Source: Vezdaea acicularis (taxonomy: Eukaryota). From it: a stretch of DNA of 36,555 bases. Within the stretch, counting starts at the first letter, position 1; each line of letters starts with the position of its first letter. Made by a program: the position numbers and the translations under genes. The notes beneath the pieces are model-generated. The model saw only the letters and a program-made list of their open reading frames with translations. It was not told where the DNA came from and searched no databases. This document shows positions 7,098 to 17,637 of this stretch, in pieces. The DNA is taken from NCBI GenBank assembly GCA_026025075.1, contig JAPEUI010000145.1, positions 1-36,555 of the forward strand, in the 5' to 3' direction.

Positions 7098-10000
7098 CTA
7101 GTAATTTGTAAACTCGATGTCTTGCAGCGCCGTGGGCTCCTTCTTCCGCTTCCAAAGAGACCTCTTCTTCTCACGTTTCTTCTTCAACTCCTCCCAACCT
7201 TCTTCCTCGTCCTCATCATCCACGCCCCTACTGATGCGCCCCGATGCAACAGGTTTTATAGACATAATTGTATCTGCTTTGTTCCAGTTTGGAGTTACTC
7301 CAGAAAAGGTTGACGCTCGACCTTGCTCTGCGATCCCAGATGGAACTTGGTTGACTGGTCGATAGCGGGACGGCATGCCGACGTTGCTGCGTTCCGACGG
7401 GGCAATCGATGGCTGATATCCTGCAATTCCTGGCGCGTGGCTATGCATGGAAGGAGCGTAGGTCGAATTTCGGAAGTTCAACTGCGACATACTGGGATCC
7501 AACATGCTCATAGTGCGTTGGTGTACTTGTAGGCCACTTGGAGAAGCAGGTGCTGAATTCGAATAAGTTGACAGAGGTCTCATACCCGGGCCCATCCCTT
7601 TAGGTAAGTTCGTCATTGGGGCCATGTTCATGCCCGGTTGACCATTTGGCATTCCTTGCATTTGCATCATTTGCTGCATCCACTGCATTTGTACTTGCAT
7701 CATCTGTTGCATTTGGTGTGACATTTGCATCTGAGCTTGATCGCCTGGTGACAACATCTGCTGAGGCCCCATCGGTCCCATCATACCAGGCGGCTGGAAT
7801 GCACCTGGCCCAGGTATTGATTGTCTAGGATTGCCGGCCAGCCCGGGGTGGGGATAACCACTCTGCGGCGAAGCCAATGGTGGTACATCGAAGCCACCAG
7901 TAGCATTTGGGCTTCCACGTCTCATTGCTCTGGCCCGCTCTTCGCCGGCAATCACCCCCACAAGTCCACCCGGAGGAAGATTGCCACCTTGAAGGGCACC
8001 ACCCTGGGCCGATGCGGGACGATTTGCACCAAATGCAAGCGACTGGCGGTTCGGTGGATTGACGATGCTCGCGCCAAAGTACGGGTCCTGAGGTAGACCT
8101 CGGGCAAACACAGGTAGCTGACTGTGTCGTTGGCCACCAGCGACGGTGTCTCCAGCAACAGATGCCGCAGGTGGAGGGTATGAGCTATTCTGGCTCACTG
8201 ATCGAAGATTCGGGTTTGAGCTTGTATTCACGACTGACAAACGGGTTGGCGGTCTGTTCTTGCTTGGAAACCCATGGGCTTGCAAGATAGCCAGGGGTAC
8301 TTCGTCGTCCTCGTCCTCACTTGACTTGCCCGCATCGCCGGCCTTATCTTCGTTGAGATTGATACCTGATATTGCCCCTAGCAGGTTTGGCGAACTGGCG
8401 TTTGCTTGAGAGGACCTGAGACTGCGAATTTCGGACGGTTGCTCTCCTGTGACCTTCATCATTTGCTGCCTGTAAACGGCGAGATGAGCTTCTTGCTTCC
8501 GACGCTGCTTTGCAAGTTCACGATTACGCTCTGCTTCATCGTCATCATCATAAGCATCGCCGCCATTCTCTGATTCACCACTATCAGAAGCATTACTCTG
8601 GGTACGCGATAACTCTCGCTCTCGGCGATAACGTTCGAATTGAGCCGGGGTCATCACCTTTTTCTGAGGTTGCTGTGACGGAGGGTTTGGCGGAGGGTCT
8701 GCTTGTTGTTGTTCGTATCGTGTTGCTAGATTAGCTGCAGTGAACAGCGAAGAGTCGTGAACGGAGTCTTGCACTGGAGCCAATGGTAATGTCTGCGCTT
8801 TTGGTGGGATCTCTCTGGGACCAGCCTTCCCAGACGACGCAGCAAGCGGTTCTGAATCTTCACTATTAAGTTGAGCCGCCTGGTTTCGCTTGCCTGTAGT
8901 TGATGGCAAAGAGCCCGAGTCTCTAGCGTTGAGGTTGGATCCTGTGTGCTGGGACCGTTGAAGGGCTCGACTCGCATTCACGGACTCTAAGACAAGTTTG
9001 GCATCTTGGTCTTCCATAGTCGGTGAGGATGACTGCATTCCTAAAGTATTGCTACGTCTCCAACCTGGCCCTAACCGCCGAGGTCTATTCTGGTTCGAAG
9101 TGCTGGTTTGTCCTGGTGACTGCTGCGGGGTCAAAGCACGAACATTGTTGTGCCTTGGAACTGGTGGCCCCTCATCGGAATCAGGTACCCCGCTCGCAGT
9201 AGGTGTAAGATTAGACATTAAGTTGTCCGTCGATCTACGGCCGCCCCAAGAATACGGAGATGACTCATTAGATCCATCGACGTTGATCCGTGCCGGCGTG
9301 TAATCGCTTCTGCCATTTATATAGGACTTTGGTGGCAATGTTGGTGGAGTCTCTGTGATAAAGCCCTACCCGATAAAGTTAGTAAGATCAATTGCTCGTG
9401 CGGTTATATTTCAATGAGACGTACAGGACTTCCAGTGAGTTGGGGGCTGTGCCCTCGTTCCTCTATGATGGCACTTTGACGCTTCCCAATATTCCCAAAC
9501 ATGTCCCCAAACCCCTTGAAGCCTCCTAAGTCTGGTGTACCCAAGTCCGTTTCGATCTTCGGCGGGGTTGCTGTACTGGCATAACTGCTTTCCGTCAACC
9601 CTCTATCCCTCCGTACTTGCTCCGAATTCCTCTCTGGTGTCTGAGATTGTAGGGGAATCTTCGAAAATTCTGGAATTTGTGGACTCAAAATTGGCGGTTT
9701 CGCCACCTTCGAGCCGAAAGAGAAGGTTCGGCCTCCGGCTTTCAGCGAAAATACGGGATCTTTTCCAGGCAGTTGAGGCATCGTCTTATTTTGATATGGC
9801 ATCTGACTAGGCTTGGCAAAAATGTTGTCCTCGTGAGGATGGGCGCTAGTTGAGGACGGTACAGTGGAGGCTGAGCTTAATCGTGCCGAGGAAGAAGAGG
9901 CATCATTGTAGCCTCCCGTCGATACTGAATTCGTGTTCGACGCTCCACTTCCTCTATAGAGTTACAAATTAGATTCAGAACATTTCCTGGGACGAAGAAT

Positions 10001-10292
10001 TCGGTTTGTAGACCCACCGAACGAGATTCTTGCCTGGCTGCTCTCCTAGATCATCTAACCCGTCTTTTCTTGACGGACGACCTGCACTCCAGAAGTTGAG
10101 GGCTCTTCCCCCGTCAAATGACTTGCTGCCCCCAGACACACGCTCCGCTGAACGCCTCGCTTTTGCGTCTTCGATTTCTGGGCGTGTAAAGACGCGAAAT
10201 GTTCCTCCTTCGGTGGGTTCGGCCCCCAGGTCCTCTAAAGCGTTTCCAGCAGACTTCCGGCGGCTAAAGCCTTTGGGCAGCTTGATTGGCAT
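7098..10292 (-). CDS. Conserved fungal low-complexity/disordered protein of unknown function; exons 10292-10018, 9953-9425, 9365-7098 (~1023 aa)
   Basis: Three ORFs join in frame through canonical introns 10017-9954 and 9424-9366. Motifs MPIKLPKGFSRRKS, KKVMTPAQFERYR, RRKQEAHLAVYRQQMMKVTGE, DDEVPLAIL, GGLVGVIAGEERARAMRRGSPN, an M/Q-rich tract and PSIAPSERSNVGMPSRYRP recall a filamentous-ascomycete family of unknown function. Confidence 0.85.
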
Positions 10293-12288
10293 ATAGAATG
10301 AGTGATGGTGTTGGCGATCAAGAGTCTCGAAAGAATAGTGCAGAGGCAATAACGCCTAGCTAACGCTTCACGTGGACATAAGTCGAATGTATGCGGGTCC
10401 TAAACCCCGAGAGCCGACAGAAGGAGAAGTTTTCTAGAATCTGGAGACTTCGGAAGGAAGTATTAGTCGTTAATGGTCAAATGATGACTCAAAGCAAGAT
10501 AGAGTTAGGAAAGTATATCAAATGGCCCGGAGGTATTGGAGTTTCCGAACGGTTAGACTCCATAGTATTGGAAAGGTACCTAGTTGCTGAAGTATGTGTT
10601 AAGCTGACCTGATATGGGAATAAAGGAAGTCATAGGCACAAAGTCCAGAAGCCTCAGCCATTCATCCGAGCCGTCCCAATGATGTGGCTAGAAGCGGTGG
10701 TACCTGTTGGTTGACTCGGGGTGGAATCTTATTGTTTGGAGTTTTGATGTATGGTTGCAAAAATAGACCACGAAAATCCGAAGGAGACAGGGTCCACAAC
10801 AAGCAAATGAGAAGTCAGACTTACAAGAGCAATAACGGCAGAGTGTCTAGAATGTACACGAAAGTCCAATTGGACAAGCTTGGGGATCTAAGAAAAGAGA
10901 ACGAGAATGGTAACGAGAGGATGGTAGGTTGACGTAAAACTGTGAAGTTGTCGTGGTTTAGGAGATGTTGCTGACACGGACGGATACGTAGAGGCCGGGT
11001 GTCCCTTGTCGGAACCCCGTTACGTCGTCCCTCCTGTGAATTCCGGCCGTCGCTTAGCCCACTCGGTTTGGCTCACTCCTGCCGCCACAGACGTCCAACT
11101 TTCCGCAATGGCGCCCGGCTTTCCTCGGGCTTGGAACTAGCATTACTGACCTTTCTTAACAGCTCGATGCACAAAGCAGGTTTGTTGGAATGAGCGAATG
11201 GAATCAATGTATCGATGACAACCGCCACAACAGATAACAAGTGCTTGGGAAACCTCTAGAGGGCGGGATTTCGAGACACGCTTAGGGCTATTACCAAACT
11301 ACTAAGTTAGGGTGTGGCCTCACAGCTTCGGGCAGCCGCCGTGATGCTGAGGCACGCCGTACGTAGAAATCGATAGCCTGGGGCTGGAGTTCTCTAGGCT
11401 ACAGACCTCAACTTTTGCCTATTCAACCGCAATGCCGGGGCCTGCGCTTAGCAATTGGCTCTTTTCATTCTGGTCAAGCTAATTCTTCCTCTGCATGTGT
11501 CAGGATCTGGCGAGGCACAGGAGATGGCCAGGAACCACGGATCAACCAACGCAAGCTGTATAGGAGATCTACCGCGCATGATTTCACTGTATTCCGAACG
11601 CTAAGCTATAACCATCAATAGGAGATTGGGAGCAGAACGCGGCAAGCACTGGGTGTAATGATGCCGACAAGCCGTCTCCAAACTAGAGCATACAAAGGGC
11701 TCCCGTTCACGAGTGGAGATTATTGGCCCTGGGCCTCATGTTTCACTTTCAACATTCAGGCGCGATGCAGCTTCTAGCGATGGTCCTCGTCCGACTCCGA
11801 CGAAGACCAATAGAGAATTGTCACAGCTCTTAGTCGCGAGCGACCCTCACGCGCAGAATACGAGCTTCATCCACACTGAGACGAGAGATAGAACCATATA
11901 ACTCATACGAGAACAACTGACAGGAGAGAATGCGAAGCGTTAACGCGACAAGCCCGAGATCCTCGCTTCAACAGCCATGCTCTCGATATGGTTAGGGCTA
12001 CAAAAGAGCATTGCCGAACAAAGCCATCGAAGCCATTAGGTTGACGCGCAAAACCAAACGGTCTCGAGCTCTCGACTCTCACTGGCCACAAGCGTGCCGC
12101 CTTCCGAGAAGCTCATTTCCACAATGGGCGGGGAAACGCCAACATGAGCGGAGACAACGCGCCTTGTCAACCTGTTGCGCGCAATGATAGCATCAATTGA
12201 GATATATAACATAAGACTTCTTGACATAGATTCGAATTATAGATACTAGAGGAGCCCCTTGAAATTCATTGCTTTCCTTGCGCAGAGG

Positions 12289-12512
12289 TCAGGCTATAGT
12301 TTTCTCACTGAGGGGACCTCTGGATTTCCGACTTTTCATGAAAACAATGACTGCTCCAACAACAATGCCGATAAGCAAAAATCGTCGGAACCAGGTAAGA
12401 CCGATCGTATCGTCCGACGATATTTTCGTCTCCCATACAGCTGAGAGAGTTGGCTCGCTTTCGAGAGGTTCTGCATCACCTTCCTTCCTCCAGGCGGCAG
12501 TACCGAATTCAT
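12289..12512 (-). CDS. cypB: Alternative terminal exon of cyclophilin B: acidic linker, transmembrane helix and basic tail (long isoform 278 aa)
   Basis: Donor G|GTATCC at 12597, branch ACTGAT, acceptor AAG at 12513. The in-frame exon reads DEFGTAAWRKEGDAEPLESEPTLSAVWETKISSDDTIGLTWFRRFLLIGIVVGAVIVFMKSRKSRGPLSEKTIA*. Confidence 0.75.
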
Positions 12513-12577
12513 CTTCATGAACGAGAACGTATCAGTAAATTCGAAGCAGAGTTGGGTAGGCACCGAAGGTGCCTGAA

Positions 12578-13582
12578 TCAAAGTTCCTTTTGGATACCTT
12601 CTTCTGGCATTGGCAACTCGCCACTCTTAACTATCTTCACTTTCTCGACAGGTTTATCACCCTGTCCTTTCTTGACGTTCTCGATTGCCTCCACGATGTC
12701 ATAACCCTCGAGAACTTCCCCGAAAACAACATGTTTCCCGTCGAGCCAACTAGGCGTCGCAATTAGCAGGATTCAAATATTGTTTGAGAGAGCAATAAAC
12801 TACTCACGAGGTAATGACGGTTGTAATGAAGAATTGAGACCCGTTGGTATCTTTGCCAGAATTGGCCATGCCTGGGTATGTTATAAGCAAAGAATATACT
12901 GAATCAATTAATCAATCAGCATACTGAGAAGGCCCTTCTTCGTATGCTGCGTTTCGTTAGCCTAGTGCCGAAGATGCCTTGCTTGTTAGGGTCCGAACCT
13001 TCAATTTAAAGTTCTCATCCGGAAATTTAGCACCATAAACTAATACCGTCAGGTTCATAGCTCTCCTTGCTCTTCGAAAATTACATACTCGATTTGCCAC
13101 CAGTGCCTTTGTGAGTTGCTGATTAGTAGAGCCTTCTCGTGGGAATTTCCGCCCTTACCATCATGATTCGTGAAATCACCGCCCTGGATCATGAAGTCCT
13201 TGATGACACGATGAAAGCTAGAACCTTCATAGCCATACCCTTCTTGACCGGTTGCTAAAGCTCTGAAATTTTCGGCAGTCTGCCAAACGATGAGACCCTT
13301 GTGATTAGGAATGACCCATCGGGCGTACCTTAGGAACTGTCTTTCCGTAAAGCCCTATCACTATTCTTCCCAATGGCTTGTCACCATGCTCAATGTCGAA
13401 GTAAACCTTGAGAAACGTCAGTTACAGATCTGGATATCGACCCATCCATTTCAATTGAAGCATGCCTTATGAGTAATCTTCGGACCCTTCGCAGCTTCCG
13501 CGGTGGTTGCCAGGAAGAGCAGCGTTGCCGCCACGAAGAAGAGAATAGACAGCATGAGTCTATTTAGGCTTCCAGTAGCCAT
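12578..13582 (-). CDS. cypB: ER cyclophilin B (peptidyl-prolyl isomerase), soluble isoform; exons 13582-13466, 13406-13329, 13279-13159, 13106-13089, 13039-12999, 12946-12925, 12871-12808, 12749-12578 (210 aa)
   Basis: Absent from the ORF track because of 7 short introns. The spliced product has a signal peptide, then [16 protein letters not shown]...[17 protein letters not shown]...[15 protein letters not shown]...GTGGKSIYG...FPDENF...[19 protein letters not shown]...[10 protein letters not shown], and ends EGIQKEL*. Confidence 0.95.
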
Positions 13583-13788
13583 GGTTGCAATGATATATAG
13601 TTTGATGGTGAAGAATGTCTTGAATATATCAATTATGAATTGGAGGAACTCGCTCGTAAAGGTGGCTTCAAGGGGGGCAGAGACGCCAAGGCTTTATACC
13701 GCTAGCACGTCTCGGGTATTCGTGATCTGTAAACGCATTACTCTGATACAACTAACGTCGCCATGAGTATGTGATCTTCCATAACACA

Positions 13789-14330
13789 ATGGTCAGTACA
13801 CTCCATAATTATCATTCAATGCTGATCTGGCTCAGGTTTTCCTATTAGGCATCAATTTTCCAGAACAAAGGCTGGTCAAGGTACAATTGAGCATGCCCCT
13901 AGACATCCGTCGGAGTAAAGTTTGCGAAGCTCCTGAACTCACATTATCATATAGCGATGCCTCGAAACATTTTACGGCATTGGGCCCCATGTGGCTGACC
14001 GACTGATGGCTCGATTCTTTCTTCATAAAACAGCAAGGGTTGGGGAGATGGACACCAAACAAGTCAACGACTTGACCGCAGAACTGTCGAATATGACCAT
14101 TGAGAACGATCTGCGGCGGAAAGTACGAGACAACATTAAAAGGTTAAGGGATATGGGGTCCTATCGGGGGAGACGGCATGCCATGGGTTTACCAGTCAGG
14201 GGGCAGAATACAAGATCTCAGGTACGAATTCAAAGCTATCCATGGCCCACATTCATAGCGTTAAGCATCCTAACCTTGCAATTAGATAAAAACCGCTCGC
14301 AAGCTCAATCGCATAGACCGACAAGGATGA
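13789..14330 (+). CDS. SWS2: Mitochondrial small-subunit ribosomal protein uS13m; exons 13789-13791, 13836-13880, 13955-14221, 14286-14330 (119 aa)
   Basis: Spliced product [27 protein letters not shown]...IENDLRR...[31 protein letters not shown] carries the S13 signature. Three GT-AG introns, all phase 0. Confidence 0.92.
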
Positions 14331-15424
14331 ATTTCCAGTGTTCGGGCCTGTCTTTCTATCAATTGACCGATTACAAGCATAGCATTCCTTAGTTAGAGAA
14401 TAACTTGCCGTCCCGCACATCTCGTTCAGCGTACCAACACAGAAAGGGCTTCAAAGTGGGTTTTCCTGGCGATGGGCGAAGTCTCAGATATGCAGATATT
14501 TAAAGAAAGGCGTGGGACTGTTCCTCTTTTCACTGTATACGTGTATTATAGGACCTTCCCATATGTCATAGAGGCAGCTGGAACTTTTTGACCCCTCACA
14601 AAGATTGTTTGTAGCTGAACAAGAAGCTATAAGGGAGCATCCTATCGAAGTATATAGACTTCTTGCCCTCACTTAACATGTAGCATTCAGAAGCCAGCTG
14701 GTCTGTTGTAGCTGGTTGGCTACTCTTGCTGGCACGCACGTAGCTACCAAGCCTTTGCCTCTTGGTGATGCTAAGATATGCAGAAATTTGTAGGCCATGT
14801 ATTCGGATAACGTTGTAAAATAGAGTTTATCATTACGTGAAGACAATTAACGAACATCAACTATCAGGCAGCTATATATCTGTGATAAAAGTCGGTGTGT
14901 GAGGATGAGTCGCCTCCCAGGTGCGTCTGGGCCTAGTCCGTTGAGAAAAATACGCTAAGCGAGCAGTATCGCCTATCCGCTGAAATTTTCCCACTGTATC
15001 TCTGTCAGTCTTAACTTTTCTCACAAACTCTCATCGATCCTCCTCCTCTCCAACATCTCCTACTTCACGATACACAACCTTTACTGTCCTTAGAAAGGTT
15101 TCCTTTTTGAGGCTTTGAGTTAGACATCTCCTCGGTCGCTCCATACTGACAGAAAGAACGCCGTTTGGGCAGTCTTTCTTTCTTGACGAAGTCATTTCAG
15201 CCCTCAATCTTTCATTTGGTTGAGCGTCCACCGACCAGCACAAACTGCAAGCCCCGCAGCACCAGTACACGCAAGCATTACTGACCTATCGTCGGTGCTA
15301 CATAACTTGGATTAGGCTCTGCTGATCTTTGATTTTCTTCAAGGTCGCTAACAACTTGAATTGTTGATTGAAAGCTTACGAGCATACTAAAATCAACCAA
15401 AGCCATCGAAATCACTTTTCAATC

Positions 15425-17637
<2,213 letters not shown>

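What the first reader, a model, noticed from the sequence alone, without database searches (positions are those of the whole stretch)
12289..12600. Cyclophilin B: optional terminal intron switches a soluble ER form (..QKEL) to a membrane-anchored form
Seen: unspliced, the last exon ends EEGIQKEL*, a KDEL-like retrieval signal. A donor inside it (GAA G|GTATCC, 12597), a branch ACTGAT and an acceptor AAG (12513) define an 85-nt intron that removes both KEL and the stop. Splicing joins in frame a 74-aa extension: acidic linker, hydrophobic FLLIGIVVGAVIVFM, then basic KSRKSR..EKTIA*, which fits type I membrane topology and the positive-inside rule. Inference: one gene encodes a luminal and a membrane-tethered foldase, with the retrieval signal coded inside the retained intron. 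I cannot confirm whether this has been described.
Basis: partly seen in the sequence, partly recalled or inferred. Interest (0 to 1): 0.8.

Follow-up and report, generated by a model that had tools for sequence, protein, structure and literature searches.

The report
Cyclophilin B soluble-or-anchored splice switch
A fungal protein-folding enzyme gene has a weak last intron: left in, the enzyme ends in an ER-retrieval tail; spliced out, it gains a membrane anchor. The layout is conserved across filamentous ascomycetes and is already visible in public gene models.

Summary
On the minus strand lies a Pezizomycotina cyclophilin B gene: ATG at 13582 and seven short constitutive introns. The short reading frame ends ..[11 protein letters not shown] (210 aa). 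A canonical 85-nt intron (12597-12513) removes that end and joins a 74-codon exon in frame (278 aa). That exon encodes a linker, a 15-residue hydrophobic segment, KSRKSR and ..SEKTIA.

- **Donor:** in 41 of 41 related metagenome loci it sits in the same Gly codon, and it never has G at +5. All seven constitutive donors in the window have G there.
- **Downstream exon:** a profile built only from annotated long-form tails finds it in 29 of 41 loci and in the window (E 8.6e-9), and in 0 of 42 reverse-strand controls.
- **Selection:** dN/dS of the exon is 0.17-0.37 in four informative pairs.
- **Transcripts:** intronless, cDNA-like contigs of relatives show the intron retained (3) and joined (2, plus one protein).
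- **Public models:** both a ~208-aa and a ~298-aa form are annotated for the same species.

This is a real, conserved two-isoform gene. Its regulation and the fate of the anchored form are unknown. I found no paper on it, but both forms are already in databases.

The parts
12289..13582 (-). Cyclophilin B gene, from the start codon to the stop of the long form
   Evidence: The exon model gives 210 aa (short) and 278 aa (long). The short form is 79-82% identical over its full length to proteins named peptidyl-prolyl isomerase B. Pfam PF00160 matches two window exons.
13493..13582 (-). Predicted N-terminal signal peptide (first 30 codons)
   Evidence: Hydrophobic N-terminus ending ..TAEA before the conserved KGPKITHK, aligned with orthologues. 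No signal-peptide predictor was run, so this is an inference.
13407..13465 (-). Constitutive intron 1, with GC-AG borders (aag|GCATGC)
   Evidence: It is required to join ..KITHK to VYFDIEHG as in all orthologues.
12598..12749 (-). Common part of exon 8 (end of the cyclophilin domain up to ..PMPEE plus the first base of the Gly codon)
12513..12597 (-). Optional 85-nt intron: donor GTATCC, branch tACTGAT, acceptor AAG
   Evidence: The donor has C at +5, while all 7 constitutive donors of the gene have G at +5. The same donor position occurs in 41 of 41 related loci.
12578..12597 (-). Short-form-only coding inside the intron: last two bases of the Gly codon, then I-Q-K-E-L and TGA
   Evidence: In relatives the stop lies 17 nt after the donor in 39 of 41 loci and 20 nt after it in 2. 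These 20-23 nt are 100% identical in 3 close pairs.
12558..12574 (-). 7-bp hairpin (AGGCACC / GGTGCCT, 3-nt loop), 3 nt after the short-form stop
   Evidence: Not statistically unusual (whole intron z = -0.96) and not conserved in relatives.
12289..12512 (-). Long-form terminal exon: 2 bases of the junction codon, 73 codons and TGA
   Evidence: P0001. Homology to tails elsewhere. The long form aligns end to end with annotated long forms.
12337..12381 (-). Hydrophobic segment FLLIGIVVGAVIVFM (predicted transmembrane helix)
   Evidence: Mean Kyte-Doolittle 3.09 over 15 residues. It aligns with the hydrophobic block of 21 other tails.
12292..12336 (-). Predicted cytosolic tail: KSRKSR then ..SEKTIA, matching the conserved end [EQ]-K-[ST]-[MLI]-[AV]
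   Evidence: Alignment A2. K70 is the only column conserved in at least 90% of sequences.

Best explanation
This is the single secretory-pathway cyclophilin B gene of a filamentous ascomycete. Its last intron is spliced inefficiently, so two mRNAs are made.

When the intron is retained, translation runs 17 nt into it and stops. This gives a 210-aa soluble luminal enzyme ending in a KDEL-like xxEL tail (here QKEL). When the intron is removed, the retrieval tail and its stop are lost and a 74-codon exon is joined in frame. This gives a 278-aa type I membrane protein. Its cyclophilin domain faces the lumen and is followed by a variable acidic linker, a short (about 15-residue) transmembrane helix, and a basic cytosolic tail with a conserved C-terminal pentapeptide.

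The split between the two products is most likely set by the donor itself. It lies in the Gly-Ile(-His) codons of the short form's tail and therefore cannot carry the consensus G at +5.

Shown: the anatomy, conservation of donor, stop and exon, the coding signature, and the existence of both mRNA types in relatives. Inferred: that both are made in this organism, the topology, the ER residence of either form, and that donor weakness sets the ratio.
For: - **Anatomy:** canonical GT..CTGAT..AG borders and an in-frame join.
- **Donor:** AAG|GT sits in the same Gly codon in 41 of 41 xxEL-class loci among the 80 fetched. Position +5 is C in 27, T in 10, A in 4 and G in 0. All 7 constitutive donors of the window gene have G at +5.
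- **Short-form end:** it is kept inside the intron in all 41 loci ([ED]L then stop).
- **Downstream exon, automated test:** found in 32 of 41 loci, against a mean of 5 per 100 shuffles. By eye it is also present in L001, L023, L027, L033 and L035, behind longer introns or below my hydrophobicity cut-off.
- **Downstream exon, independent profile:** a profile built from 16 annotated long-form tails hits forward downstream ORFs in 29 of 41 loci and in the window (E 8.6e-9). It hits 0 of 42 on the reverse strand.
- **Wider spread:** a profile of 22 tails finds 349 representative proteins at E<=0.001 among 1.84 billion.
- **Selection:** dN/dS of the exon is 0.17, 0.18, 0.20 and 0.37 in the 4 informative pairs of 9.
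- **Branch site:** CTRAY lies 12-37 nt before the acceptor in 23 of 26 introns.
- **cDNA-like contigs (intronless full ORFs):** retained in L018, L034 and L040, the last two with the anchor exon downstream in the same contig. Joined in L049 (277 aa with anchor) and L031.
- **A further joined product:** P0188, 267 aa with the anchor tail, sits on a contig of at most 938 nt.
- **Same species annotated both ways:** Alternaria alternata 208 and 298 aa, A. rosae 208 and 297, Pyrenophora tritici-repentis 208 and 297.
- **Soluble form known:** the title of Derkx and Madrid 2001, seen in a reference list, states that A. niger CYPB carries the ER retention signal HEEL.
Against: - No RNA from this organism could be examined, so splicing here is inferred.
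- No retained and joined cDNA pair comes from one proven species. L018 and L031 are 92.1% identical, and L030, which is identical to L031, merely ends at the donor.
- L049 and P0188 could come from lineages that lost the intron.
- In the searches I could make, transcript-derived proteins are overwhelmingly the short form. The tail search with an Alternaria long form found only 4 proteins, all genome gene models. The joined form may therefore be rare.
- The search that listed the short forms used a query containing the short-form end, which biases that comparison.
- QKEL has K at -3, seen in none of the 41 relatives.
- The rest of the intron is at least as conserved as the anchor exon at nucleotide level in every compared pair that differs (90-94% against 84-86% in close pairs). 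Nucleotide identity alone therefore does not mark the exon.
- One lineage (L018/L031) splices the same intron onto a short tail with no anchor.
Confidence: 0.8

Rival explanations
1. The intron is constitutive. Only the anchored 278-aa protein is made, and 'short forms' are unspliced precursors or annotation errors.
For: Many genome pipelines annotate only the long form (8 of the 120 listed; Alternaria clusters).
Against: The [ED]L-stop end is conserved at a fixed distance inside the intron in 41 of 41 loci. The 20-23 nt after the donor are 100% identical in 3 close pairs. Three cDNA-like contigs retain the intron, as do many roughly 1-kb contigs encoding full 208-aa proteins. A. niger CYPB is reported with HEEL (title only).
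Confidence: 0.04
2. In this organism the intron is never removed. The anchor exon is an unused relic of an ancestral long form.
For: There is no RNA evidence here. One related lineage has lost the anchor (L018/L031). The window's donor is weak.
Against: The window exon is intact over 74 codons and keeps all three conserved blocks: the start motif, the hydrophobic block with basic flank, and the end motif. It scores E 8.6e-9 against an independent profile. Donor, branch site and acceptor are all intact.
Confidence: 0.1
3. The downstream ORF is a separate small gene or a chance ORF.
For: ORF callers list such tails as stand-alone proteins of 36-191 aa.
Against: There is no Met before the hydrophobic segment in the window ORF. 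The exon is always on the same strand directly after cypB, and the reverse-strand control gave 0 of 42. Joined forms were seen in L049 and P0188.
Confidence: 0.01
4. The extension is reached by stop-codon readthrough or by Ire1-type unconventional splicing, not by the spliceosome.
For: cypB is a UPR-induced gene in A. niger (passage in PMC2322954). A hairpin follows the stop codon.
Against: Reading through TGA in frame meets another stop, and the anchor exon lies in a different frame because the intron is 85 nt. The borders are GT..CTRAY..AG in the window and in relatives. Intron folding is not unusual: window z = -0.96, mean z 0.00 over 26 loci, and 1 of 26 below -2.
Confidence: 0.01

Closest known systems
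Aspergillus niger CYPB / A. nidulans CypB (soluble ER cyclophilin B)
   Same: Same orthologue group: signal peptide, one cyclophilin domain and a C-terminal xxEL end. An Aspergillus-like locus (L036..GSHEEL) has the same donor and an anchor exon downstream.
   Different: The titles and passages I could see describe only the soluble HEEL form. The papers themselves were not read. The window ends in QKEL, not HEEL.
Public long-form 'peptidyl-prolyl cis-trans isomerase B' gene models (for example P0034 Pleopsidium flavum 272 aa, P0165 Alternaria alternata 298 aa, P0132 Trichoderma parareesei 262 aa)
   Same: Identical architecture. They diverge from the short form right after ..PEE and then carry a linker, a hydrophobic helix, a basic stretch and a ..K[ST][ML][AV] end. 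The window long form aligns end to end with them, at 67% identity to P0034.
   Different: They are single-isoform annotations. None of the names seen marks them as one of two isoforms.
Saccharomyces cerevisiae Cpr4 (secretory-pathway cyclophilin with a putative transmembrane domain), beside soluble ER cyclophilins
   Same: A luminal cyclophilin domain tied to a membrane. [quoted passage not shown]
   Different: It is a separate gene, in a group found only in Saccharomycotina (same passage). Here one gene would supply both forms. Homology of the anchors was not tested.
Secreted versus membrane immunoglobulin heavy chains; peroxisomal isoforms of fungal glycolytic enzymes made by alternative splicing (both recalled, not checked here)
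   Same: A choice at the 3' end of the pre-mRNA swaps a C-terminal localisation signal.
   Different: Different proteins and signals. Here the retained intron itself encodes the retrieval signal and its stop.

Membership tests
Cyclophilin-type PPIase (Pfam PF00160) | Domain match above the gathering score | tested here: met
   Window exons score 43.0 and 45.1 bits against a cut-off of 21.7. Long-form relatives score 166-174 bits.
Fungal cyclophilin B orthologue group | Full-length similarity to proteins named cyclophilin B / PPIase B | tested here: met
   The short form is 79-82% identical over 201-210 residues to the best 12 stored homologues.
Fungal cyclophilin B orthologue group | N-terminal signal peptide | tested here: inconclusive
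   The hydrophobic N-terminus aligns with orthologues. No signal-peptide predictor was available.
KDEL-type ER retrieval signal | C-terminal tetrapeptide fitting [KRHQSA]-[DENQ]-E-L (PROSITE pattern, recalled) | tested here: not met
   QKEL has K at -3. 37 of the 41 relatives also fail at -3 (V in 19, A in 18), so the strict pattern is a poor test for this group. Only the ..EL end is shared. Retrieval itself is not testable here.
Pezizomycotina long-form (anchored) CypB | Donor in the Gly codon 17 nt before the short-form stop, phase 1 | tested here: met
   The window has aag|GTATCC at 12597. The same position holds in 41 of 41 loci.
Pezizomycotina long-form (anchored) CypB | Tail homologous to annotated long-form tails | tested here: met
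   E 8.6e-9 against a profile of 16 annotated tails. E 8.4e-11 against a profile of 34 metagenome tails.
Pezizomycotina long-form (anchored) CypB | Joined mRNA present in the organism | not testable with these tools
   No RNA run was listed and no genome is held.
Di-lysine (KKXX / KXKXX) ER membrane retrieval | Lys at -3 and at -4 or -5 from the C-terminus | tested here: not met
   The tail ends ..SEKTIA, with Lys at -4 only. Position -3 is S or T in 19 of the 22 aligned tails. The rule itself is recalled.
Ire1/Hac1-type unconventional intron | Non-spliceosomal borders within paired stem-loops | tested here: not met
   The borders are GT..CTGAT..AG. Folding is not unusual.

The most novel reading that the evidence does not exclude
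Across Pezizomycotina, the only secretory-pathway cyclophilin would be split between lumen and membrane by a splice donor that coding constraint keeps weak, because it lies in the codons of the retrieval tail. The ratio would be tunable, for example by ER stress, through conserved intron sequence. The near-invariant cytosolic end [EQ]-K-[ST]-[MLI]-[AV] would be an undescribed sorting signal. This single-gene arrangement would do the job that yeasts assign to separate soluble and membrane cyclophilin genes.
Probability: 0.25. Interest if true: 0.65.

Novelty: new member of a known kind. Interest (0 to 1): 0.45.

Why it matters
CypB is a UPR-induced foldase, of practical interest where filamentous fungi are used as protein factories. 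If one gene supplies both a free luminal form and a membrane-tethered form, then knock-outs, over-expression constructs made from cDNA of one form, and proteome annotations have each been treating two proteins as one.

For annotation, it explains why the same orthologue is listed at about 208 aa in some genomes and 260-300 aa in others. It also explains a fused CypB-Trm112 gene model.

For splicing biology, it is a clean and deeply conserved case in which a retained intron is itself coding and carries the localisation signal.

Tried and rejected
- **RNA runs:** no RNA holder was listed for 12100-13700, so read laying could not be used.
- **Own genome:** none is held.
- **Word-index search with the 73-aa tail, longer proteins:** 88 candidates, none significant. 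The tail is too divergent for 5-residue words.
- **Tail-region search with the Alternaria long form P0088:** 4 hits among 413 candidates, all genome gene models and none transcript-derived.
- **'Wrong phase' control:** uninformative. A long ORF holds AG dinucleotides in all registers, so other phases reach the same ORF. I replaced it with shuffles and a reverse-strand control.
- **Choosing the nearest AG as acceptor:** this mis-set some acceptors. L004, L034 and L032 have no branch site before the chosen AG, and L011 and L013 carry extra residues.
- **First tail picker:** it took wrong ORFs for L015, L027, L035 and L048 and found none for L004. The profile still hit the window.
- **Conserved RNA structure in the intron:** rejected.
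- **Papers:** searches found nothing describing this alternative splicing. Passages read in PMC1618848, PMC8192932, PMC13162259 and PMC13170295 do not mention it.
- **Earlier scan notes:** nothing found.
- **Unverified recollection:** I recall that Swiss-Prot PPIB entries of some Pezizomycotina list 'Long' and 'Short' isoforms. I could not check this.
- **Taxon of the window:** not resolved beyond Pezizomycotina. The nearest named protein is from Pleopsidium flavum.

Full report
**What is at the site**

The minus strand of 12289-13582 holds an intron-rich fungal gene. A script joined the exons by coordinates. This gave seven constitutive introns of 49-59 nt and a 210-aa protein. The protein has a hydrophobic N-terminus, one cyclophilin domain and the end ..[11 protein letters not shown], with TGA at 12580-12578. 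Two window exons match Pfam PF00160 at 43 and 45 bits against a cut-off of 21.7. The whole short form is 79-82% identical to proteins that their sources name peptidyl-prolyl cis-trans isomerase B.

The neighbours are a Ribosomal_S13 gene (13955-14392, +) and a DEAD-box helicase (15650-17488, +). No whole genome is held for the window. The nearest named homologue is from the lichen fungus Pleopsidium flavum. I did not resolve the taxon further than Pezizomycotina.

- The donor gaa g|GTATCC starts the intron at 12597.
- The branch site is tACTGAT.
- The acceptor AAG ends the intron at 12513, which makes it 85 nt.
- The junction codon is G|AT.
- The following exon, 12512-12289, is open for 74 codons.
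- That exon encodes an acidic linker, FLLIGIVVGAVIVFM, KSRKSR and ..SEKTIA.

Reading through the TGA meets another stop, and the anchor exon lies in a different frame. Stop-codon readthrough therefore cannot reach it. The stop-to-stop ORF has no Met before the hydrophobic segment, so it is not a gene of its own.

**Relatives: proteins**

A search with the 57-aa last exon found 725 hits, of which 120 were listed. Most were orthologues of about 208 aa ending ..EGI[HR]x[ED]L. Eight of the 120 were 270-307 aa. These come from Lecanoromycetes, Geoglossomycetes and Dothideomycetes. They are collinear with the short forms up to ..PEE and then carry a linker, a hydrophobic helix, a basic stretch and an end such as ..EKSMA.

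Cluster look-ups show both lengths for the same species:

| Species | Short form | Long form |
|---|---|---|
| Alternaria alternata | 208 aa | 298 aa |
| A. rosae | 208 aa | 297 aa |
| Pyrenophora tritici-repentis | 208 aa | 297 aa |
| Trichoderma reesei / T. parareesei | 207 aa | 262 aa |

The two Trichoderma entries are different species. The window's long form aligns end to end with these long forms, at 67% identity to P0034. The tail has no Pfam family.

**Relatives: DNA**

A scan of metagenome contigs with an alignment of seven last-exon peptides found 510 relatives, of which the best 80 were kept. Forty-one of the 80 loci end in the xxEL class.

- **Donor.** In 41 of 41 loci the Gly codon before the tail is GGT preceded by AAG. 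This gives a phase-1 donor 17 nt before the stop in 39 loci and 20 nt before it in 2. Position +5 is C in 27, T in 10, A in 4 and never G. All seven constitutive donors of the window gene have G at +5. The optional donor is therefore consistently weak. It is also locked by the Gly-Ile-His codons that it overlaps.
- **Anchor exon, automated test.** I looked for an in-frame downstream ORF with a hydrophobic window. It passed in 32 of 41 loci, against a mean of 5 per 100 shuffles (range 0-26). The window passed, and 9 of 100 of its own shuffles did.
- **The nine failures.** Three have under 250 nt downstream (L019, L021, L043). L001, L023, L033 and L035 do carry the exon, behind introns of roughly 270-300 nt or below my hydrophobicity cut-off. 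L027 passed on a spurious ORF; its real exon lies behind a ~300-nt intron. L048 is unresolved. L018 lacks an anchor.
- **Anchor exon, independent test.** A profile built only from 16 annotated long-form tails hit forward downstream ORFs in 29 of 41 loci and in the window (E 8.6e-9). It hit 0 of 42 on the reverse strand.
- **Breadth.** A profile of 22 tails found 349 representative proteins at E<=0.001 in 1.84 billion. The best 150 are 36-191 aa, that is, stand-alone ORF calls of this exon.

**Coding signature**

Nine pairs were compared. One was identical and four were saturated. The other four gave dN/dS for the anchor exon of 0.17, 0.18, 0.20 and 0.37. The 200 nt after the exon are only 45-54% identical. 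The 20-23 nt from the donor to the short-form stop are 100% identical in three close pairs.

One result runs against a simple exon/intron contrast. The rest of the intron is at least as conserved as the anchor exon: 90-94% against 84-86% in close pairs, and 64-70% against 58-63% in three of the four more distant pairs; the fourth, L002/L013, is about equal at 49% against 50%. Indels in the variable linker lower the exon figure. The pattern may also mean that the intron is constrained. A CTRAY branch site lies 12-37 nt before the acceptor in 23 of 26 introns. No conserved RNA fold was found.

**Transcripts**

No RNA run was listed for this organism. Among the loci, some contigs carry the whole reading frame without any of the introns seen in genomic loci. 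I take these as cDNA; that is an inference.

- **Retained:** L018, L034 and L040. In L034 and L040 the anchor exon lies downstream in the same contig. The short form therefore arises by intron retention, not by early polyadenylation.
- **Joined:** L049 (277 aa, with anchor) and L031.
- **L018 and L031.** They are 92.1% identical. In L031 the same donor is joined to a short conserved exon without an anchor, so that lineage still splices but has lost the helix.
- **L030.** It is identical to L031 over 622 of 622 nt and ends exactly at the donor.
- **P0188.** This 267-aa protein with the anchor tail sits on a contig of at most 938 nt.

No retained and joined pair comes from one proven species. 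L049 and P0188 could also come from lineages that lost the intron. Many roughly 1-kb contigs encode full 208-aa forms, but that search was biased towards the short end.

**Mechanism**

The best-supported reading is one gene with two products, chosen by inefficient removal of a spliceosomal intron. Retention gives a soluble luminal foldase with an xxEL retrieval-type end. Removal gives a type I membrane-tethered foldase.

- The soluble ER form is known for A. niger CYPB. [quoted passage not shown]
- Topology, ER residence of the anchored form and any regulation are inferred.
- The tail is not a di-lysine signal. Its conserved end [EQ]-K-[ST]-[MLI]-[AV] has no function that I can name.
- The window's QKEL is unusual. 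K at -3 occurs in none of the 41 relatives.

**Comparison and novelty**

The kind, a 3'-end splicing choice that swaps a localisation signal, is well known. Yeasts have a separate membrane-bearing secretory cyclophilin, Cpr4 (passage in PMC1618848). Both forms of this fungal gene already sit in public databases as single-isoform models.

Seven full-text searches and passages of five papers gave nothing on the two-isoform reading. The supplements of PMC1618848 could not be opened. I also recall, unverified, a Swiss-Prot Long/Short annotation for some PPIB entries.

I therefore rate this as a new member of a known kind. It is real, conserved and testable, but not a surprise of the first order.

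Noticed in passing
window 13407-13465 (-): The first intron of the cypB gene has GC-AG borders (aag|GCATGC ... tctcaag). It is needed to join ..KITHK to VYFDIEHG as in all orthologues.
   Followed up: partly
window 12558-12574 (-): A perfect 7-bp hairpin with a 3-nt loop starts 3 nt after the short-form stop. The intron as a whole does not fold unusually (z = -0.96), and the hairpin is not seen in 26 related introns (mean z 0.00).
   Followed up: yes
window 12292-12306 (-); alignment A2 of 22 tails: The cytosolic end of the long form carries a conserved pentapeptide [EQ]-K-[ST]-[MLI]-[AV]-COOH (here E-K-T-I-A). It is not a KKXX signal, and I know of no described function for it.
   Followed up: partly
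L018:740-880, L031:620-720, L030 3' end: One lineage splices the same donor onto a short, conserved exon with no hydrophobic segment. L031 is joined and L018 is retained. The L030 contig, identical to L031, stops exactly at the donor.
   Followed up: partly
proteins P0150, P0125-P0136: A Cytospora mali model of 377 aa fuses long-form CypB to a Trm112-like protein. A Trichoderma 90% cluster mixes 127-aa Trm112 proteins with CypB. This suggests that trm112 lies directly downstream of cypB in Sordariomycetes and is sometimes merged with it by gene callers.
   Followed up: no
pairs L003/L006, L015/L022, L009/L014, L025/L038 and others: The part of the optional intron after the stop is at least as conserved at nucleotide level as the anchor exon in every compared pair that differs. 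This may point to splicing-regulatory constraint, or may simply reflect indels in the linker.
   Followed up: no
window 13955-14392 (+) and 15650-17488 (+): The neighbouring genes are a Ribosomal_S13 family protein, divergent from cypB, and a DEAD-box helicase with a Gly-rich C-terminus. The 7098-10355 (-) region holds long low-complexity ORFs without Pfam matches.
   Followed up: partly
protein P0039 (Orbilia brochopaga, 223 aa): In this early-branching Pezizomycotina model the ..EEGIQNE.. stretch runs on without a stop to a later ..HEEL end. The short-form tail is therefore built differently there.
   Followed up: no
L037 (1897 nt, ORF 1-978): An intronless 325-aa cyclophilin B-like ORF has a Thr/Ser-rich linker and a C-terminal hydrophobic segment but a different end. 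It may be a constitutive anchored form in a more distant lineage.
   Followed up: no
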